Source of the DNA: an uncultured Acidobacteriota bacterium | Lineage (GTDB): Bacteria; Acidobacteriota; Blastocatellia; RBC074 | Length of the DNA stretch: 64,000 nt | Reading direction: 5' to 3' | Assembly (NCBI GenBank): GCA_963796275.1 | Contig: CAWCKY010000004.1 | Location: 1,184,001 to 1,248,000, forward strand | Part shown: positions 3,769 to 59,233 of the stretch, piece by piece | Numbering within the stretch: position 1 is the stretch's first letter | How the letters are laid out: every line of letters begins with the position of its first letter | Notes under the pieces: generated by a model | Seen by the model: only the letters and a program-made list of their open reading frames with translations | Databases searched by the model: none | What the model was told of the DNA's origin: nothing | Position numbers and translations under genes: made by a program

Positions 3769-3883
3769 TCAGTTTTCAGTTATCAGTTTTCAGTTTTTAG
3801 CTTTCAGATTTTAGCTCTCAGGTTTTCAGTCTTTAATAAATTAGGCGGCCATCTGGAAACTAAAACCTGAAAACTGAAAACTG
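3769..3883. repeat. Inverted element of heptamer repeats (CAGTTTT)n / (AAAACTG)n
   Basis: Left arm tcagttttcagttatcagttttcag..., right arm ctgaaaactgaaaactg; same unit as 40801-40858. Confidence 0.85.
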
Positions 3884-9341: not shown

Positions 9342-9545
9342 AGGCATTTATCATTATTCATTTTACATATTATATTTGTTTATTAAGTAGCCGATTTTCA
9401 ATCAATGACAGATGTAAAATATAAAATGATAAATGATAAATGCCCTGTTCATTTTACATATTATATTTGTCATTACGTAGCCGATTTTCAATCAATGACA
9501 AATGTAAAATATAAAATGATAAATGATAAATGATAAATGCCCTGC
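9342..9545. repeat. Tandem duplication (period 91 bp) of an AT-rich heptamer-based palindrome
   Basis: Units begin at 9357 and 9448 (ttcattttacatattatatttgt...tagccgattttcaatcaatgaca.atgtaaaatataaaatgataaatgataaatg); the second unit has one extra ATAAATG. Confidence 0.9.
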
Positions 9546-36805: not shown

Positions 36806-37867
36806 CTACGGTTTAGCCTCATAGATTAAATTGAACGGCGTTTCCGTCGCTCTACGGAAGCGTTTGAAACCGCCCGAGGTAACGACTTCGCGCATTCGCG
36901 CCTCGCCTGCCTGCGCTCCCAATGCCAGTCCGACTTCCTGTGAGAGGGAAGCGGGAGTGCAGATCAGCGTCGAGGCGGAATAGAAAGCCCGTCCTATCGA
37001 ATTCAGGTTGTCCTTGACCTGATCGTGAGCGAATGGCTCAACAATCATCCACGTGCCGTCAGGCGCCAGCGATCCTCGGACGTGAGCCGCCGCGCCCGAC
37101 GGATCGCCCATATCGTGAAGACAATCGAAGAAAGTGACAAAATCGTAGCCGGTTCCGGGATAATCTTTCGCTTTTGCGACCTCAAATTTCACCCGATTGG
37201 CGACGCCCCCCTCGCTGGCTCTCTTACGCGCCGTCTCGATGGACTCGTCGTGATAATCGAATCCGATGAAAGTCGACTCGGGGAATGCCTGAGCCATCAG
37301 GATCGTCGAAGTGCCGAGCCCACAGCCGACATCGGCTACTTTCGCGCCCGTTTTGAGTTTTGCCTCAACCCCGTCCAGCGCGGGAATCCACGAGTTCACC
37401 AGGTAGGCCGCATACCCTGGGCGGAAGAAGAGCTCGGTCCCGCGAAAAAGACGGCGGTAATGTTAATGCCATCCTAACCCTTCGCCGGTACGAAACCTTT
37501 CCGTAAGCTTGGGCACAGCTCCAAGCGCTGCTACAGCCACGAGAAAAGCTCCCGGTATATATGCCGGGCTCATCTCATCTCCCAAAGCGAACGCTTGCTC
37601 TTCGGAAAGATAGTAGCGCTGAGTATCAGAGTCATATTCGATGTAGCCGCCTGCCGCCTGGGCACAGAGCCACTCGCGAATGTAACGTTCGTTTGTGCCA
37701 GTGAGCTGCGCCAACTCGGCTGATGAGAGGTGCCTTCCGGCATCGGCCATTGCTTTGTAAAGACCGAGACTCTCTCCAATAACCACCAGGCCGGCGTGAA
37801 AGGTAGCGCCGAAATCAGAGATAAACTTACCCATCAATTGATTTAACTTCTCTTCGTTTATGGCCAT
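36806..37867 (-). CDS. SAM-dependent methyltransferase with N-terminal wHTH, interrupted by an in-frame TAA at 37463-37465
   Basis: MAINEEKL...GLYKAM...ERYIREWL...GEGLGWH*HYRRLFRGTELFFRPGY...DVGCGLG...FFDCLHDMGDP...LGAQAG, all in one frame. Confidence 0.9.
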
Positions 37868-37926
37868 GATAAAACTCCTTAAAATATAGTCGGGAGTGTC
37901 GCCTTCAGCAAAAAGCAGGCCGCCGA

Positions 37927-39696
37927 CTAATTGATTTGCTCTATCACCGATGGCGTTCCACCAAGTCTGGCTATCATATGCTCGGCTCTCCATTCGGCCA
38001 GCGCCGAAATAGTCATAAATGGATTGACGCCGAGCGAGGTGGGTATGGTCGAACCGTCGGTGATATATACGCCGTCGTGCAGGTTTCCCAGAGCATCGTA
38101 AACTTGTCCGAAATGGTTGACGACGCCCGTCGTCTGGCTATCGCTCATCACGCAGCCTCCCAACGGATGCGCGGTAACCAGCGTCTTGAATGGCGTGAAC
38201 CCCCAGAGCGGGTTATTTATGTAAGTCCCCCCCAAAGCCTCGGTGTGCTGCAGTAGCCCGGTGTTCATCTGCTCGAAGATGGCTTGCTTACCAACACCGG
38301 GCCATTTTATACGCGCTTCGTCGGTGAGCGGATCTAGTTCGATCACTCCCCCGTGATCGTCGTGCCCATTTACCAGATAAGCGAGCGAGTGATTGCCGGC
38401 GCCTTTCTCCAGGTCGGAACTTCCGACCAGGTCTAGCAGCCGCCTCCCCGCCTCCGAGATGTTATCGAAGAAATTGTTCGGATCAGTATCCTTGCCTATC
38501 ATAAAAGCCAGAGCGGTCCGCACCGCATTGACGTACATCAGCGGTAGCGAAAATTCTTCGGCTTTGTATCGCTCACGCAGCGGTTTATGAGTATTGTATC
38601 TGACCCTGGAGACGATGGATGGTCCCGGGTGAAGCAATTGTCCGGGGCCGGGCTGCAACCGGCGGGCGCGATCGCTGTCGGGATGAGCGCCCCATCCCAG
38701 CGCATCAGTGCGAAGATCGGTGTTGTACGCGAGTGCGAAGAAATCTCCGTTACCGCCGAAGCCTACGCCCAGGCTATCGGGCAAGCTGAGCCCTGCGCGC
38801 CGCGAACGCAACATGATGCCGTTGGAGCCGAGCGTGCCGGCGGCGACAACGACCAGGCGTTTGGCATTAAGTGTTCCGGCTTCCTCCTTTCCGAACGAAC
38901 TCTCGCGCCGCAAATAATGGATCGAATAACCGCCATTCGCATCAGGGGTGAGATGCCGGACCTCAACCTGAGTGAAGATATCCACGCCTCCCCAATTGGC
39001 GATCGCCAGGTAATTGGTATCCAGCGTGTTTTTGGCGCCGACATTGCAACCGCTCGCGCAGTCACCGCAATTGATGCATCTGCGCTGCTGAACCCCCCAG
39101 TTGTTAAGTCCGTCGAATTGAAAATTTACCGTAATATCGTGAAGATCGAACTGCGCGCCGGTGACTCCCTGCGCGCCCCTCTGTAGGGCTTTGGCTTTAC
39201 TGAGCTGCATCCCATTCGGATGTTTGGCGGCAAATAGCGTCGCGTGTGCGCGATCGTAGTACGGCGCGAGCTGACTGTTTTGACTGAGTGTGCGAACAGC
39301 ATCTGGCCAGGGCGATTGTTCGAAGACCTCGCTGTCCGGTCGAATGGCGCAATTGGCGTTAACCAGCGATGTGCCGCCGAGGCCCGATCCGGCGAGCACG
39401 CCGATGTCTGCGCCGAAAGTGTTGTCGTAGAGCCCAAGCGAATTGAACGGGGATCGCGTCTCGTGAAGCCCGCGTTCCAGATTATCCGGGAATTGTCCCG
39501 GGAGCCATTCTTTACCACGCTCGAGCAGTACAATCGACGGTTTTTCATTAGCGGGCCACTGAGCAGTCGCGAGTCGCGCAGCGATAACCGCCCCGCCGTA
39601 CCCGGAGCCGATGATGACCACATCATAGCCATCCGGACGTCTTTGATTCCAATCTTTTGCCAAGGGAGTTCTGTTGACGGTATACATTTGAGGCAT
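37927..39696 (-). CDS. GMC oxidoreductase, cholesterol-oxidase-like
   Basis: IGSGYGG, LLERG, GLGGTSLVNAN, CINCGDCASGC, HPLGGC, GVNPFMTI. Confidence 0.9.
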   Translation of the reverse strand: MPQMYTVNRTPLAKDWNQRRPDGYDVVIIGSGYGGAVIAARLATAQWPANEKPSIVLLERGKEWLPGQFPDNLERGLHETRSPFNSLGLYDNTFGADIGVLAGSGLGGTSLVNANCAIRPDSEVFEQSPWPDAVRTLSQNSQLAPYYDRAHATLFAAKHPNGMQLSKAKALQRGAQGVTGAQFDLHDITVNFQFDGLNNWGVQQRRCINCGDCASGCNVGAKNTLDTNYLAIANWGGVDIFTQVEVRHLTPDANGGYSIHYLRRESSFGKEEAGTLNAKRLVVVAAGTLGSNGIMLRSRRAGLSLPDSLGVGFGGNGDFFALAYNTDLRTDALGWGAHPDSDRARRLQPGPGQLLHPGPSIVSRVRYNTHKPLRERYKAEEFSLPLMYVNAVRTALAFMIGKDTDPNNFFDNISEAGRRLLDLVGSSDLEKGAGNHSLAYLVNGHDDHGGVIELDPLTDEARIKWPGVGKQAIFEQMNTGLLQHTEALGGTYINNPLWGFTPFKTLVTAHPLGGCVMSDSQTTGVVNHFGQVYDALGNLHDGVYITDGSTIPTSLGVNPFMTISALAEWRAEHMIARLGGTPSVIEQIN

Positions 39697-39878
39697 GTCA
39701 GGCTTCTCCAATCGTTGGGAAATTAGATATTTTCGAGCTGAGCGGCCGTGTTTATGGCTGAGGCAGTCTATTCCCCCTCGTTGAGAGATGCAAGAGAAGA
39801 CTTTGAGGCGGTTGGAGAAGGAGAGAACCCCAATGGTTATAGGCCATATGCCCGCTTTCGTCTCCTCTACTGTAGCCT

Positions 39879-40430
39879 TCAGAACTCCGCTTCAAGTATC
39901 TCATCACAGACATCGGCCATCGTGCAGCGGGCGCAACGCGTTGGCTGATTGTGACTGCGGCGAGCGCTTCCTTTAATCAGGAGTTTTCTCATTCGGTCAA
40001 CTACATCGATAAGTCTCACGCGCAGCTCATCTGAATTGTCGACCTGTAGCGTTCGGTCACGGTATCGAATCAGACCGTAGGGCGGAATGCAATCGAGGGC
40101 ATCTTCGACCAGAAGAAAATAGGCCGCCAACTGCATGAGATGAGAATCGTACGGCTCGCCTCCGGCCGGCGCATAACTCGATTTAACCTCGACCGGGATG
40201 AGATTGCCGCTACGATCCTTCAGCAAATAATCGGGCTTGCCGCGAATGTTTAGTTGTTTTGCGTGCAACACATCCCGACCCAGCCCGGAGGTATCGTCAT
40301 AAATCAAATCTCCTGCCGGTAACCCGCCTCGCCTCCTGATATAACGTGAAAGCCCGAGCAACAGGGTCCCCAAGCCAAAGAGAAGAAAAATAGCTAAAAA
40401 AAGTTTCGCCTCGATGTTCATCAAAGTCAT
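39879..40430 (-). CDS. Cas4-like PD-(D/E)XK nuclease, C-terminal part, with an N-terminal TM helix
   Basis: TM aa ~10-28, GKPDY, PVEVKS, QLAAY, C-terminal CARCTMADVC. Confidence 0.85.
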   Translation of the reverse strand: MTLMNIEAKLFLAIFLLFGLGTLLLGLSRYIRRRGGLPAGDLIYDDTSGLGRDVLHAKQLNIRGKPDYLLKDRSGNLIPVEVKSSYAPAGGEPYDSHLMQLAAYFLLVEDALDCIPPYGLIRYRDRTLQVDNSDELRVRLIDVVDRMRKLLIKGSARRSHNQPTRCARCTMADVCDEILEAEF

Positions 40431-40708
40431 TCAGCGCTCCCGAATAATTGGGAGAAAATGATCAAAATCAGAAGCAGCATCAATGCGGTGAGTGCGAGCG
40501 ACTTCCCTATTCGATCCAGACGTTCGGCGAGTGAAATTCCGGCACCGTGCTTGTGATGAAATACAATGCCTTCATCCAAAGACTCAGACTGCGACTCGGC
40601 GCCGCAGCGCTGGAGGTGCCACGCTTTTGCGCAGTAAACGAATGCGCCGATCTCTGATGCCGTAATGATCGGGTGCCGCTCTATATCTCGCATTTTCTTT
40701 CTCTCCAT
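40427..40708 (-). CDS. Cas4-like N-terminal fragment with a C-terminal TM helix
   Basis: ITASEIGAFVYCAKAW (first staple Cys) and EGIVFH (G..H motif), then a hydrophobic tail; ATGA overlap with the next gene. Confidence 0.75.
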   Translation of the reverse strand: MERKKMRDIERHPIITASEIGAFVYCAKAWHLQRCGAESQSESLDEGIVFHHKHGAGISLAERLDRIGKSLALTALMLLLILIIFSQLFGSAE

Positions 40709-40800
40709 TTTCTTTCTCTGTTGAATGTGTTTCTATATAGGGTTATTTCCATCAAGCAGATAGAGGAGTCGATGCTCGGAAAAACTGAGGGTTTCCCGTA

Positions 40801-40858
40801 TTCAGTTTTCAGTCGCCGATCGAGCCCCCGCTGAAAACTAAGCCTGAAAACTGAAAAC
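40801..40858. repeat. Inverted heptamer element (CAGTTTT / AAAACTG)
   Basis: ttcagttttcag ... ctgaaaactaagcctgaaaactgaaaac. Confidence 0.75.
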
Positions 40859-40881
40859 AATTCCCGAGGAAAAATCAACAT

Positions 40882-41436
40882 ATGGTAACTGACAGCCAGC
40901 TCGCGCAAATAATGCCAAAACTACCGGTTGAAAAACGTGCCCTCTACATACCATTCCTGAATAAGGCGATGGATACTTATGAAATCAATAATCGCTTGCG
41001 TAAAGCGGCATTTCTGGCGCAGGTAGCCCATGAATCAGGCGAACTCAGATACCTGGAAGAGATCTGGGTGCCGACCGAGGCGCAGACACTTTACGAACCG
41101 GAGAGCGAGCTGGCAAGGATTCTGGGCAATACTGAACCGGGTGATGGTCAAAGATTCAAGGGACGCGGCGCAATTCAGATCACCGGGCGGTCCAATTATG
41201 CAAAATACGGTGAGATGTTGGGCATCGACCTGATAACCAACCCGGCGATCGCCACGACGCCGCAGATCGCAGTGTCAACGGCCGCCGCATTCTGGCAGAC
41301 GAATGGCTTGAATGAGCTGGCAGATATCGAAGATTTCGGGGAGATTACCAGGATCATCAATGGCGGTCTGAATGGATATGAAGAGCGTTGTAAATACTAC
41401 CAACGCGCGATGGATGTATTCGGGAACAGGGGTTGA
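40882..41436 (+). CDS. GH19 lysozyme/chitinase-family protein (endolysin-like)
   Basis: AAFLAQVAHESG, GNTEPGDG.RFKGRGAIQITGRSNY, INGG.NG; no signal peptide. Confidence 0.92.
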   Translation: MVTDSQLAQIMPKLPVEKRALYIPFLNKAMDTYEINNRLRKAAFLAQVAHESGELRYLEEIWVPTEAQTLYEPESELARILGNTEPGDGQRFKGRGAIQITGRSNYAKYGEMLGIDLITNPAIATTPQIAVSTAAAFWQTNGLNELADIEDFGEITRIINGGLNGYEERCKYYQRAMDVFGNRG

Positions 41437-50804: not shown

Positions 50805-50906
50805 ATAGTTGATAGTTGACAGTTGATAGTTGATAGTTCGTATATACTGTGTCAACAATAGATACGAATTATCAATTATCAACTGTCAACTATCAATTAT
50901 CAACTA
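50805..50906. repeat. Inverted heptamer element (TAGTTGA)n / (TCAACTA)n
   Basis: Arms flank the core ttcgtatatactgtgtcaacaatagatacgaa. Confidence 0.9.
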
Positions 50907-51371
50907 TGCTCCCTCGGCGTGCATGATCGGGAGGTCGTGCTCGGGCGGGAGGTTTAGAGCTTCTTTGGGAAAATGCTCGGCAAAATAGGTGATCAGGTCT
51001 CGAACTGTGACTACGCCGGCAGCCTTTCCCTGGCTGTCGACGAGCGGAATGTTGCGATAATCGCCATCCTCCATCAAGTACATTGCCGAAATCACCGAAT
51101 CTTCCAGGCTCAACTGCTTAGGATCGAGAGTCATAAAATGATCGACCGGTGTCGTATAACTAACCGGCTCGCCGATGACCTTGTTGAGCAGGTCGCGCTC
51201 GGTGAAAATTCCCACCAGTCTGCCTTCATCGCAAATCAGCGCGCAACCAAGATGCTTCGCCTTCATTGCCTCAACCGCCTCTCCAATGCTAGCCCCTAGT
51301 TCGACCATCGCCGGTGACCGCAATGGGAGATGACGGATCTTTATCTCGCTCAGTTTATCAGCGATCGACAT
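50904..51371 (-). CDS. CBS-domain protein
   Basis: GRLVGIFTERDL, YRNIPLVD. Confidence 0.9.
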   Translation of the reverse strand: MSIADKLSEIKIRHLPLRSPAMVELGASIGEAVEAMKAKHLGCALICDEGRLVGIFTERDLLNKVIGEPVSYTTPVDHFMTLDPKQLSLEDSVISAMYLMEDGDYRNIPLVDSQGKAAGVVTVRDLITYFAEHFPKEALNLPPEHDLPIMHAEGA

Positions 51372-59081: not shown

Positions 59082-59233
59082 TTGGTTGTCGGATTTGTCG
59101 GATATCGGTTGTCGGTTGTCGGTTGTCGGAAGCAATTCGCGAGTTTGTCAATGCGAACCGGCAACCGATAACCGATAACCGATAACCGATATCCGTCAAC
59201 CGACAACCGATATCCGACAACCGATATCCGACT
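59082..59233. repeat. Inverted heptamer element (GGTTGTC)n / (AACCGAT)n
   Basis: Tandem ggttgtc units, a spacer, then tandem aaccgat/aaccgac units. Confidence 0.9.

What the first reader, a model, noticed from the sequence alone, without database searches (positions are those of the whole stretch)
39879..40708. Split, doubly membrane-anchored solo Cas4-like nuclease (best candidate for a novel system)
Seen: 40427-40708 encodes the Cas4-type N-terminal elements (TASEI..YC, then G..H) followed by a C-terminal hydrophobic helix. 39879-40430 starts with a hydrophobic helix and carries the remaining motifs (GKPD, EVK, QLAAY, CxxC-x5-C). The genes overlap by ATGA with GGGAG 6 nt upstream, which argues for a real coupled split rather than a sequencing frameshift. 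Basic residues flank both helices on the soluble-domain side (ERLDRIGK; SRYIRRR), so both halves are predicted cytoplasmic. Established: Cas4/AddB nucleases use a [4Fe-4S] staple of one N-terminal and three C-terminal Cys and are normally soluble single chains. There is no cas1/cas2 or array here. Inference: a heterodimeric membrane-tethered nuclease whose cluster forms only when both subunits meet. It could process DNA crossing the membrane (phage injection, uptake, conjugation) or be gated by Fe-S/redox state.
Basis: partly seen in the sequence, partly recalled or inferred. Interest (0 to 1): 0.88.

Follow-up and report, generated by a model that had tools for sequence, protein, structure and literature searches.

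The report
Split membrane-anchored Cas4-like nuclease pair
Two small overlapping genes encode the two halves of a Cas4-type DNA nuclease, each half ending or starting with a membrane helix; the pair is conserved in hundreds of soil and sediment bacteria with no CRISPR system nearby, and its cellular role is still unknown.

Summary
On the minus strand, 40427-40708 (93 aa) and 39879-40430 (183 aa) overlap by ATGA. The large protein matches only the C-terminal two thirds of Cas4 and starts with a transmembrane helix. The small protein carries the Cas4 N-terminal Cys and His and ends in a transmembrane helix.

The split is real and old:
- A small-ORF homologue lies upstream in 70 of 80 related loci; none of the 80 is fused.
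- In 5 of 5 genomes checked where it is not adjacent, it is encoded elsewhere.
- In 201 Blastocatellia genomes, the same 25 hold both halves.
- Rare natural single-chain forms carry a two-helix hairpin at the split point. One of them models as a Cas4 fold.
- A complex prediction supports binding: 0.83 against a best control of 0.01.

The pair is near-universal and single-copy in an Anaerolineae sample (149 of 201). There it often sits beside ssb, nadK and recN. This genome has no Cas1.

Best reading: a two-subunit, cytoplasm-facing, membrane-tethered nuclease with a shared Fe-S site and active site. Its role is more likely DNA repair than defence. I class it as a new variant of a known kind.

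The parts
40427..40708 (-). Small subunit gene (93 aa, or 88 aa from the second ATG at 40693). It encodes the Cas4 N-terminal module followed by a C-terminal membrane anchor.
   Evidence: ORF. 22 close homologues of 88-145 aa. A profile search gave 879 cluster representatives at E<=0.001. 18 of 51 family members hit PF12705 and 5 of 51 hit PF01930 at E<=1; the window copy itself hits no Pfam family.
40631..40663 (-). Codons T16-C26 (TASEIGAFVYC). This is the N-terminal helix carrying the first Fe-S cysteine, C26.
   Evidence: C26 is invariant and A17, S18, E19 nearly invariant across 51 family members. In the complex model, C26 touches large-subunit residues 158-159, next to the Cys triad.
40556..40570 (-). 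Codons G47-H51 (GIVFH). H51 is the putative metal-binding histidine.
   Evidence: G47 is invariant and H51 nearly invariant. GxxxH is present in 69 of 69 motif-bearing small halves. The equivalent His62 of SSO0001 ligates the metal ion (passage of PMC13621843). The assignment is by position and by a weak in-register alignment to Cas4 8d3l_I (E 0.68).
40442..40501 (-). Transmembrane helix of the small subunit (S70-F89). Only four residues follow it.
   Evidence: Family median Kyte-Doolittle mean is 2.54 over 19 residues. There are 2.6 K/R on average in the 12 residues before the helix and 0.65 after it. A median of 3 residues follows it.
40427..40441 (-). Junction: GGGAG (40441-40437), a six-base spacer, then the ATGA start/stop overlap (40430-40427).
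   Evidence: Read directly. An ATGA-type overlap occurs in 14 of 71 pairs. Other junctions vary: 22 have spacers of 0-30 bases, 18 have an intervening stretch of more than 200 bases.
39879..40430 (-). Large subunit gene (183 aa): an N-terminal membrane anchor followed by the PD-(D/E)XK nuclease core and the Cys triad.
   Evidence: PF12705 30.1 bits and PF01930 27.3 bits, both over their cut-offs. The match covers only profile positions 53-158 of 160. TIGR00372 scores 56.1, below its cut-off of 65. 466 homologues were found; the best 120 are all 162-191 aa.
40350..40403 (-). Transmembrane helix of the large subunit (L10-L27), followed by SRYIRRR.
   Evidence: Family median hydropathy is 2.55. 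There are 0.09 K/R before the helix and 3.1 in the 12 residues after it. In the complex model, residues 7-32 pack against small-subunit residues 57-86.
40182..40241 (-). Catalytic motifs G64-K-P-D67 and E81-V-K83.
   Evidence: Invariant in alignment A2 and present in 81 of 81 sequences. D67, E81 and K83 align with SSO0001 residues which, given a four-residue offset of the deposited chain (my inference), are Asp99, Glu113 and Lys115 (alignment; ligand list in the passage).
40119..40133 (-). The Q100-LAA-Y104 motif (QxxxY).
   Evidence: Q100 and Y104 are invariant; present in 81 of 81 sequences.
39906..39935 (-). C166-x2-C169-x5-C175, the three C-terminal Fe-S cysteines.
   Evidence: Invariant in A2; present in 80 of 81 sequences. 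C113 of the window protein is not conserved, so the fourth ligand must come from elsewhere. Residues 165, 169-171 and 174-175 are at the predicted interface with the small subunit.

Best explanation
The two genes encode the two subunits of one membrane-tethered Cas4/RecB-family nuclease.

What each chain contributes:
- Small chain: the N-terminal helix with the first Fe-S cysteine (C26) and a metal-binding histidine (H51), followed by a tail-anchor helix.
- Large chain: an N-out/C-in anchor helix, then the catalytic Asp, Glu-x-Lys and QxxxY motifs and the three remaining cysteines.

The two anchor helices pair in the membrane and replace a covalent link. The two soluble parts assemble on the cytoplasmic face into one Cas4-like fold. 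The [4Fe-4S] site and the active-site metal site are each built from both chains, so neither chain should be active alone. Rare relatives are single chains with a two-helix hairpin at exactly this point, so the split sits in the outer loop of that hairpin.

Shown: the conserved split, the co-occurrence, the motifs, the charge asymmetry and the fold likeness.
Inferred: assembly, the Fe-S cluster, nuclease activity and topology.

Biological role is inferred and is the weakest step. It is probably a CRISPR-independent, housekeeping-type DNA end-processing or repair nuclease that acts on DNA near the membrane.

I put about 0.85 on the architecture and about 0.4 on the repair role.
For: The split is conserved:
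- 70 of 80 related loci have the small ORF upstream on the same strand, and 0 of 80 are fused.
- Junctions differ widely at the DNA level. 18 of 71 pairs are separated by more than 200 bases, and 14 loci hold an intervening gene (cluster 13).

The halves co-occur:
- The same 25 of 201 Blastocatellia genomes hold both halves, adjacent to each other. Seven genomes with only ordinary Cas4-type matches lack the small half.
- In 5 of 5 genomes searched where the halves are unlinked, the small half is encoded elsewhere.

The small half is the Cas4 N-terminus:
- Natural fused forms P0163, P0250 and P0292 align to PF12705 from profile position 2-3 to 246-247, across the hairpin.
- P0163 aligns to a Cas4 model over residues 11-259, profile positions 4-159 of 161.
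- 18 of 51 small-family members hit PF12705.

Fold: the AlphaFold2 model of P0163 has pLDDT 86.0 and pTM 0.75, with a helical hairpin at residues 39-118. Its best PDB matches are Cas4 8d3l_I/J (E 2.2e-7 and 3.3e-7, TM 0.62-0.66), then Cas4-Cas1, Dna2, SSO0001, MGME1 and AdnAB.

Binding: the complex model scored 0.83, best control 0.01.
- That mark was reached by 58 of 80 solved complexes and 2 of 110 mismatched pairs.
- The runs agree in at least 81% of contacts, and partner pLDDT is at least 68.
- The calibration counts hold only roughly here, because I supplied my own alignments and a ligand rode along.
- The interface joins small residues 12-34 to the Cys-triad and QxxxY regions, and the two anchor helices to each other.

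Topology: K/R counts follow the positive-inside rule for both helices.

Role:
- No Cas1 in the genome, and ordinary chromosomal neighbours.
- 149 of 201 Anaerolineae-class genomes have a match, nearly all single-copy.
- Among the 56 Chloroflexota-type loci, nadK follows in 38 and recN in 36, and ssb precedes in 15.
- An endonuclease V-deaminase fusion gene starts within about 15 bases of the large gene's end in 3 Blastocatellia loci.
Against: - No experiment and no expression data support any of this.
- The window's own small protein hits no Pfam or NCBIfam nuclease model.
- The profile search of the small family against PDB sequences was not significant: Cas4 8d3l_I at E 0.68, ranked third behind unrelated proteins.
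- The complex pass may simply reflect the model's memory of single-chain Cas4 structures.
- No Cys-to-cluster distances were available to me, so convergence of the four cysteines is only implied by the contact list.

Against the repair role:
- nadK-recN is an old gene pair in its own right (recalled, not tested here). Synteny within one class can be inherited order rather than function.
- In Blastocatellia the pair is patchy: 25 of 201 genomes, with whole genera having or lacking it.
- Acidobacteriota sequences fall in two separate clades among Chloroflexota sequences. That fits horizontal spread of an accessory gene.
- There is no clear complementarity with AddAB/AdnAB-like helicase-nucleases: 7 of 30 genomes with the pair and 6 of 11 without it have one. 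The numbers are small and the genomes are related.
Confidence: 0.6

Rival explanations
1. Membrane-sited defence nuclease. The architecture is the same two-subunit one, but the role is to degrade phage or plasmid DNA as it enters at the membrane.
For: - Cas4-family nucleases do act in defence outside CRISPR adaptation. For example, Argonaute-associated ACE1 is a structural match at rank 20; I saw that paper (PMC12094033) only as a search listing.
- Distribution in Blastocatellia is patchy (25 of 201 genomes).
- The two separate Acidobacteriota clades fit an accessory, transferable gene.
- A membrane tether would place the nuclease where foreign DNA enters.
Against: - No defence genes lie beside it in the window.
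- PADLOC returns only generic Cas4 and DruK-type nuclease matches for the large half and nothing for the small half.
- No relative was found in viral contigs.
- It is near-universal and mostly single-copy in an Anaerolineae sample, in a conserved ssb/nadK/recN neighbourhood.
- The published analysis found that solo-cas4 genes evolve like ordinary cellular genes (abstract of PMC5704561).
- There is no obvious self/non-self discrimination partner.
Confidence: 0.2
2. DNA-uptake or competence processing nuclease. The tethered enzyme trims or degrades one strand of transforming DNA at the cytoplasmic exit of the uptake channel.
For: Only the membrane location and the nuclease family. A Cas4-like nuclease was reported to affect plasmid transfer or maintenance in a cyanobacterium (PMC10653904; I saw the abstract start only).
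Against: No competence genes were seen among the conserved neighbours in 80 loci. I did not test co-occurrence with comEC or similar genes.
Confidence: 0.07
3. The soluble parts are exported. The hydrophobic segments are signal sequences or anchors that place a nuclease outside the cytoplasmic membrane.
For: The large half begins with a hydrophobic segment, as a secreted protein would.
Against: - The basic residues lie after this segment, not before it: 0.09 K/R before against 3.1 after. That is the reverse of a signal peptide.
- The small half has no N-terminal signal at all; its hydrophobic segment is at the extreme C-terminus.
- Fe-S cluster insertion is cytoplasmic (established knowledge).
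- No twin-arginine motif precedes either helix (read).
Confidence: 0.03
4. Broken gene or assembly artefact. A single Cas4 gene was split here by a frameshift or sequencing error.
For: The two ORFs overlap by four bases, as a one-base indel could produce.
Against: - 0 of 80 related loci are fused, and the junctions are of many kinds, some with an intervening gene.
- Both halves are kept even when unlinked.
- Both junction-flanking segments are strongly hydrophobic helices that ordinary Cas4 lacks.
Confidence: 0.01
5. The small protein is not part of the enzyme. It is a separate membrane partner or regulator, for example an inhibitor or anchor of a truncated nuclease.
For: The window's small protein has no significant hit to any nuclease model on its own.
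Against: - Its invariant Cys and His sit where Cas4 has them.
- In natural fused forms the same segment aligns to the first positions of PF12705 and of a Cas4 model.
- The large half has only three conserved cysteines.
- 18 of 51 relatives hit PF12705.
Confidence: 0.04

Closest known systems
Cas4 (PF01930 / TIGR00372 / COG1468), e.g. SSO0001 (PDB 4IC1) and type I-C Cas4 (PDB 8D3L)
   Same: - PD-(D/E)XK core with Asp, Glu-x-Lys and QxxxY.
- One N-terminal plus three C-terminal cysteines for a [4Fe-4S] cluster.
- An N-terminal histidine.
- It is the best structural match for the modelled fused relative.
   Different: - It is encoded as two polypeptides.
- A membrane helix is added to each at the break point.
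- There is no cas1, cas2 or CRISPR array.
- It scores below the TIGR00372 cut-off.
- Cas4 proteins described so far are soluble single chains or Cas1 fusions (established knowledge and the passages of PMC5704561).
Solo-Cas4, in particular the monophyletic clade noted in 'many Chloroflexi' (Hudaiberdiev et al. 2017, PMC5704561)
   Same: It is a stand-alone Cas4-family gene outside CRISPR loci, mostly vertically inherited, with a suspected repair or unknown defence role. The large half is very probably what that paper counted in Chloroflexi; this is my inference, as the tree and tables are in supplements I could not open.
   Different: The main text of that paper contains neither 'transmembrane' nor 'split', and 'membrane' occurs only in an unrelated figure legend. 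The missing N-terminus, the partner gene and the membrane anchors are not described there.
Nuclease domains of AddB / AdnAB / RecB and Dna2
   Same: It has the same nuclease fold, and the Fe-S staple of AddB and Dna2. These are structural matches. They act in DNA end resection, which is the role I favour.
   Different: There is no helicase domain here and none encoded next to it, and those enzymes have no membrane anchor.
Natural single-chain relatives with an inserted two-helix hairpin (P0163 266 aa, P0250 301 aa, P0292 296 aa)
   Same: They have the same N-terminal module, the same nuclease core and the same position of the hydrophobic segments.
   Different: They are covalently continuous and rare: 3 of the best 150 small-family hits are longer than 140 aa (one of these, P0233 at 173 aa, looks truncated), plus 1 found by the longer-protein search. 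The tree does not resolve whether they are ancestral or secondary.

Membership tests
Cas4 (PF01930 / TIGR00372) | Score above the curated family cut-offs | tested here: inconclusive
   The large half scores 27.3 bits on PF01930 against a cut-off of 22.7, but covers only profile positions 53-158 of 160. TIGR00372 scores 56.1, below its cut-off of 65. The small half has no hit.
Cas4 (PF01930 / TIGR00372) | RecB-type catalytic motifs (Asp, Glu-x-Lys, QxxxY) plus the N-terminal metal-binding His | tested here: met
   D67, E81, K83, Q100 and Y104 are invariant in the large half and aligned to SSO0001. The His is supplied by the small half: H51, with GxxxH in 69 of 69 sequences.
Cas4 (PF01930 / TIGR00372) | Four cysteines (one N-terminal, three C-terminal) for a [4Fe-4S] cluster | tested here: met
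   Met only across the two chains: C26 in the small half (invariant) plus C166/C169/C175 in the large half. Cluster binding itself cannot be tested with these tools.
Cas4 (PF01930 / TIGR00372) | Single soluble polypeptide (or fusion to Cas1) | tested here: not met
   It is made of two ORFs, each with a strongly hydrophobic helix. 0 of 80 loci are fused.
Cas4 (PF01930 / TIGR00372) | Encoded with cas1/cas2 next to a CRISPR array (CAS-Cas4) | tested here: not met
   No Cas1 match in the whole 94.7%-complete genome. No CRISPR-like array in the window. The neighbours are ordinary chromosomal genes.
Solo-Cas4 (Cas4-family gene outside CRISPR-cas loci) | Cas4-family nuclease domain not linked to cas genes | tested here: met
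PD-(D/E)XK nuclease superfamily, PF12705 (PDDEXK_1) | Score above the cut-off, and full-length coverage when the halves are joined in nature | tested here: met
   The large half scores 30.1 bits against a cut-off of 22. The natural fused relatives cover profile positions 2-3 to 246-247 of 247.
AddB / RecB / AdnAB helicase-nucleases | Nuclease domain fused to, or operonic with, a superfamily 1 helicase | tested here: not met
   No helicase domain is present in either ORF, and none is among the conserved neighbours.
Known anti-phage defence systems (PADLOC-DB 2.0) | Match to a system-specific component other than generic Cas4 | tested here: not met
   The large half matches only Cas4/Cas1-fusion models and gives weak DruK-type PD-(D/E)XK matches. 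The small half matches nothing.
Any nuclease family | DNA cleavage activity | not testable with these tools
   This needs biochemistry.

The most novel reading that the evidence does not exclude
The family is a nuclease whose activity is switched on by assembly. Two separately inserted membrane proteins become a nuclease only when their helices pair and a shared [4Fe-4S] cluster and metal site are built across the subunit interface. Activity would then be confined to the inner face of the membrane and gated by subunit supply or by Fe-S/redox state. The target would be DNA that touches the membrane: DNA entering the cell, or chromosomal DNA caught at the division septum of these often filamentous bacteria. 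That would be a mode of nuclease control with no described precedent in the Cas4/RecB family.
Probability: 0.2. Interest if true: 0.85.

Novelty: new variant of a known kind. Interest (0 to 1): 0.62.

Why it matters
- Hundreds of genome annotations call the large half 'CRISPR-associated protein Cas4'. It is in fact an N-terminally incomplete, membrane-anchored protein with no CRISPR link. It needs an unannotated 80-100 aa partner to have a full active site and Fe-S site.
- Recognising the pair corrects those annotations and gives a function to a widespread 'hypothetical' small membrane protein (879 cluster representatives).
- It defines a membrane-tethered, two-chain Cas4/RecB-family nuclease, which I found described in none of my literature searches.
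- The pair is near-universal in an Anaerolineae sample (149 of 201 genomes). It is therefore likely to matter for the genome maintenance of a major, poorly studied group of soil, sediment and wastewater bacteria.
- It offers a natural split-enzyme system for studying how Fe-S clusters bridge subunits.
- The role of solo-Cas4 proteins is an acknowledged open question (passages). This clade offers a concrete handle on it.

Tried and rejected
Leads that went nowhere:
- Direct family assignment of the window's small protein failed. Pfam and NCBIfam gave nothing relevant. A profile of 51 relatives against PDB sequences gave only non-significant hits: E 0.25-0.68, with Cas4 8d3l_I third.
- PF01930 searched over the whole genome did not recover even the large half at genome-wide E<=0.001, so that search says nothing about other Cas4 copies.
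- Sequencing runs: no RNA holder was listed. The only holders have small shares of the sampled words (0.18 and 0.07). I did not lay reads, so I have no read-level or expression evidence.
- Viral contigs: 45 pattern matches, none a relative.
- The protein atlas returned unnamed clusters of 81-101 aa, mostly Chloroflexota, plus one Bacillota cluster with PF12705 on 14% of members. These are leads only.
- The promoter/terminator scan of 39600-41000 found nothing above shuffled expectation.

Ideas rejected:
- Frameshift artefact (see rivals).
- Signal-peptide export. The charges are on the wrong side.
- Replacement of AddAB/AdnAB. In 41 Anaerolineae-class genomes, 7 of 30 with the pair and 6 of 11 without it have a >1000-aa PF12705-bearing frame. 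That is too few genomes and they are too related to conclude anything.
- Tree. It is unrooted (midpoint root for drawing only), and the position of the fused forms is unresolved. I therefore draw no conclusion on whether split or fused is ancestral, or on the direction of transfer between phyla.

Literature:
- Searches found no paper describing a membrane-anchored or split Cas4.
- I read PMC5704561 as abstract and passages and PMC13621843 as passages. All other papers I saw only as search listings.
- Supplements, which hold the Cas4 tree and neighbourhood tables of PMC5704561, were closed and may already show this clade.

Correction: an earlier count said 69 of 80 loci with 11 lacking. The output gives 70 and 10, and the report uses those figures.
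Full report
**1. The observation**

On the minus strand, ORF 40427-40708 (93 aa) and ORF 39879-40430 (183 aa) overlap by ATGA. GGGAG lies six bases before the second start.

The small protein reads ...ITASEIGAFVYC(26)AKAWHLQR...EG(47)IVFH(51)...ERLDRIGK, followed by 20 hydrophobic residues and a four-residue tail. The large protein starts with an 18-20 residue hydrophobic stretch followed by SRYIRRR. It then carries GKPD(67), E(81)VK(83), Q(100)LAAY(104) and C166-x2-C169-x5-C175.

**2. What the halves match**

The large half passes the Pfam cut-offs for PF12705 (30.1 bits) and PF01930 Cas4 (27.3 bits). The match covers only profile positions 53-158 of 160. It stays below the TIGR00372 cut-off (56.1 against 65). 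Against solved structures it aligns to the Cas4 part of the type I-G Cas4-Cas1 fusion and to SSO0001.

In that alignment D67, E81 and K83 fall on SSO0001 residues. With a four-residue offset of the deposited chain (my inference), these are Asp99, Glu113 and Lys115. A passage of PMC13621843 lists those residues, together with His62, as the metal ligands.

The small half has no significant hit of its own. Three lines of evidence identify it as the missing Cas4 N-terminus:

- **Conserved residues.** Its Cys and G...H sit where Cas4 has its first Fe-S cysteine and the metal-binding His.
- **Family hits.** 18 of 51 relatives hit PF12705 and 5 of 51 hit PF01930 at E<=1.
- **Natural fused relatives.** These are P0163 (266 aa), P0250 (301 aa) and P0292 (296 aa).
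  - The same segment aligns to the very first positions of PF12705, and the alignment continues across two hydrophobic helices to the last positions.
  - P0163 also aligns to a Cas4 model over residues 11-259, profile positions 4-159 of 161.

The large half has only three conserved cysteines; C113 of the window copy is not conserved. A four-ligand cluster therefore needs C26 of the small chain.

**3. The split is real, old and maintained**

The large half has 466 homologues. The best 120 are all 162-191 aa, many named Cas4 by their sources. A profile of the small half finds 879 cluster representatives at E<=0.001. Of the best 150, 147 are 72-138 aa.

A scan of one genome per species found at least 453 species with a relative of the large half; 80 loci were kept. 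By record titles and the tree, 24 of these fall with Acidobacteriota sequences and 56 with Chloroflexota.

- **Adjacency.** A small-half homologue lies upstream on the same strand in 70 of the 80 loci, and none is in one frame with the large half.
- **The other 10 loci.** Four sit near a contig end. For five of the remaining six I searched the whole genome, and all five encode the small half elsewhere (E 1e-16 to 1e-20).
- **Junctions.** Across 71 pairs they vary:
  - 14 have ATGA-type overlaps.
  - 14 have other overlaps.
  - 25 have spacers up to 200 bases.
  - 18 have more than 200 bases. 14 loci hold a roughly 209-aa HEAT-like gene, which lies between the halves in most of them.
- **Caveat on starts.** In that script, start codons were assigned by the nearest expected position, so the overlap classes are approximate.
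- **Co-occurrence.**
  - In an even sample of 201 genomes of the window's class, full-length matches to the large half occur in 25 genomes. The small half occurs in exactly the same 25, on the same contig within about 45 bases.
  - Seven further genomes have only partial Cas4-type matches, in longer open frames (218-605 aa), and lack the small half.
  - These genomes are related, so this is a pattern and not a statistic.
- **Own genome.** It has one copy of each half.

**4. Membrane anchoring and topology**

Both hydrophobic segments score like transmembrane helices. The family medians are 2.54 and 2.55 Kyte-Doolittle units over 19 residues.

| Chain | K/R on the soluble-domain side | K/R on the far side | Far-side tail |
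|---|---|---|---|
| Small | 2.6 in the 12 residues before the helix | 0.65 after it | median 3 residues |
| Large | 3.1 in the 12 residues after the helix | 0.09 before it | median 2 residues |

(All.) By the positive-inside rule, both soluble parts are cytoplasmic and the outer tails are minimal. This fits the cytoplasmic assembly of Fe-S proteins.

The fused relatives show the same two helices joined by a short loop. The AlphaFold2 model of P0163 (pLDDT 86.0, pTM 0.75) has them as a helical hairpin, residues 39-86 and 91-118, projecting from the nuclease domain. The family trait is therefore a transmembrane hairpin inserted between the N-terminal Fe-S arm and the nuclease core. In most members the gene is cut in the outer loop of that hairpin.

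**5. Fold and assembly**

The P0163 model matches these PDB entries best:
- Type I-C Cas4, 8d3l_I/J (E 2.2e-7 and 3.3e-7, target TM-scores 0.62 and 0.66).
- Then the I-G Cas4-Cas1 fusion, Dna2, SSO0001, MGME1, AdnAB and the Argonaute-associated Cas4-family protein ACE1.

A complex prediction used the window's two proteins, family alignments and a 4Fe-4S ligand riding along. It scored 0.83, 0.83 and 0.84, against a best control of 0.01. That mark was reached by 58 of 80 solved complexes and 2 of 110 mismatched pairs. The runs agree in at least 81% of contacts, and partner pLDDT is at least 68.

The interface has two parts:
- Small residues 12-34 lie against large residues 95-107, 140-160 and 165-177. 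C26 touches residues 158-159.
- The small helix 57-86 lies against the large helix 7-32.

This supports binding but does not show it. The two chains together resemble solved single-chain Cas4 structures, so the pass may come from fold memory. The calibration also did not include ligands or user-supplied alignments.

**6. Context and likely role**

There is no Cas1 in the genome and no CRISPR-like array in the window. The flanking genes are a GMC oxidoreductase, a GH19 hydrolase, CTP synthase and a DAHP-synthetase-I-family gene (PF00793). PADLOC gives only generic Cas4-type hits. No relative was found in viral contigs.

In a 201-genome sample of the class that holds most Chloroflexota loci, 149 genomes have a match at E<=1e-20, almost always one. 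Many of those genomes are incomplete.

In the Chloroflexota-type loci the order is often ssb, DUF3467, a translin-like gene, the small half, an optional HEAT-like gene, the large half, NAD kinase, a B-box zinc-finger membrane protein and recN. NAD kinase is present in 38 loci, recN in 36 and ssb in 15. In a Blastocatellia subclade, an endonuclease V-cytidine-deaminase fusion gene starts within about 15 bases of the large gene's end in three loci (L010, L012, L017). It lies within 2 kb in three more.

These DNA-metabolism neighbours favour a housekeeping DNA repair or recombination role. So does the published finding that solo-cas4 genes evolve like ordinary cellular genes (abstract of PMC5704561).

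Several points argue against taking this too far:
- Synteny within one class may simply be inherited order.
- nadK-recN is a conserved pair in its own right (recalled).
- In Blastocatellia the pair is patchy.
- Acidobacteriota sequences form two separate clades among Chloroflexota ones, in an unrooted tree. That fits occasional horizontal transfer.
- A comparison with AddAB/AdnAB-like genes showed no clear complementarity.

What the membrane tether is for remains unexplained.

**7. Comparison with what is known**

It works like a Cas4/RecB-family Fe-S nuclease, and by sequence it belongs to the solo-Cas4 part of that family.

It fails two defining features of canonical Cas4: it is not a single soluble chain, and it is not associated with cas1, cas2 or CRISPR.

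Hudaiberdiev et al. (PMC5704561) noted a monophyletic solo-Cas4 group in 'many Chloroflexi'. The main text of that paper contains neither 'transmembrane' nor 'split'. Four literature searches found no description of a membrane-anchored or two-gene Cas4. Supplements were closed, so the clade may appear there without these features being remarked on.

**8. Verdict**

- **Observation:** confirmed.
the architectural part is supported; the functional guess is not.
- **Novelty:** a new variant of a known kind. It is a widespread, conserved, two-subunit, membrane-tethered Cas4-family nuclease whose small subunit is unannotated.
- **Confidence:** about 0.85 for the architecture and about 0.4 for a repair-type role.

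Noticed in passing
window 40804-40859 and 3769-3882: Clusters of the heptamer AGTTTTC, in tandem and inverted copies, lie in two intergenic regions. One is the divergent region between the small-subunit gene and the GH19 gene. Matches to AGTTTTCAG number 19 in the window against 11.6 expected, and they are concentrated in these two places. Other heptamer arrays lie at 50805-50907 and 59084-59232. They may be regulatory or repeat elements.
   Followed up: partly
L027, L031, L035, L037, L040, L052, L057, L058, L061, L065, L068, L069, L076, L077 (e.g. L058:5372-6001): A gene of about 209 aa with weak HEAT-repeat-type hits (PDS5, Cnd1; both below their cut-offs) is found in 14 Anaerolineae loci, lying between the two halves of the nuclease in most of them (in L069 the small half is not in the fetched stretch). 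It could be a third component.
   Followed up: partly
L006:7719-8897, L010, L012, L015, L017, L019: A fusion of endonuclease V (PF04493) with a cytidine/deoxycytidylate deaminase domain (392 aa) lies just downstream of the pair in a Blastocatellia subclade. It starts within about 15 bases of the end of the large gene in L010, L012 and L017.
   Followed up: partly
L027:5629-6156 and 36 other loci: A conserved 175-aa protein with an N-terminal B-box-like zinc finger and apparent membrane segments sits between NAD kinase and recN in 37 Chloroflexota loci. Its function is unknown.
   Followed up: no
window 36806-37399 and 37463-37993 (minus strand): A methyltransferase-domain ORF (197 aa) and an Rv2258c-like winged-HTH ORF (176 aa) lie head to tail. 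They look like two pieces of one Rv2258c-type methyltransferase, so this may be a frameshifted or genuinely split gene.
   Followed up: no
L070:5599-5703 and L021:5628-6029: In two loci the small-half ORF looks disrupted. In L070 it is cut after the N-terminal motif and continues in another frame. In L021 it runs on without the hydrophobic tail. These may be pseudogenes or assembly errors.
   Followed up: no
L017 and L020: Two records titled 'uncultured Heliobacteriaceae' carry pairs that sit inside the Blastocatellia clade of the tree. The bin labels are probably wrong, or else this is a recent transfer.
   Followed up: no
window 9357-9532: A 90-base AT-rich unit is repeated 1.9 times at 95% identity.
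   Followed up: no
window 40686-40719: The start region of the small gene contains a duplicated GAAAGAAAATG, giving two in-frame ATGs (93 or 88 aa). The source's own gene call uses the second (P0121; repeat).
   Followed up: no
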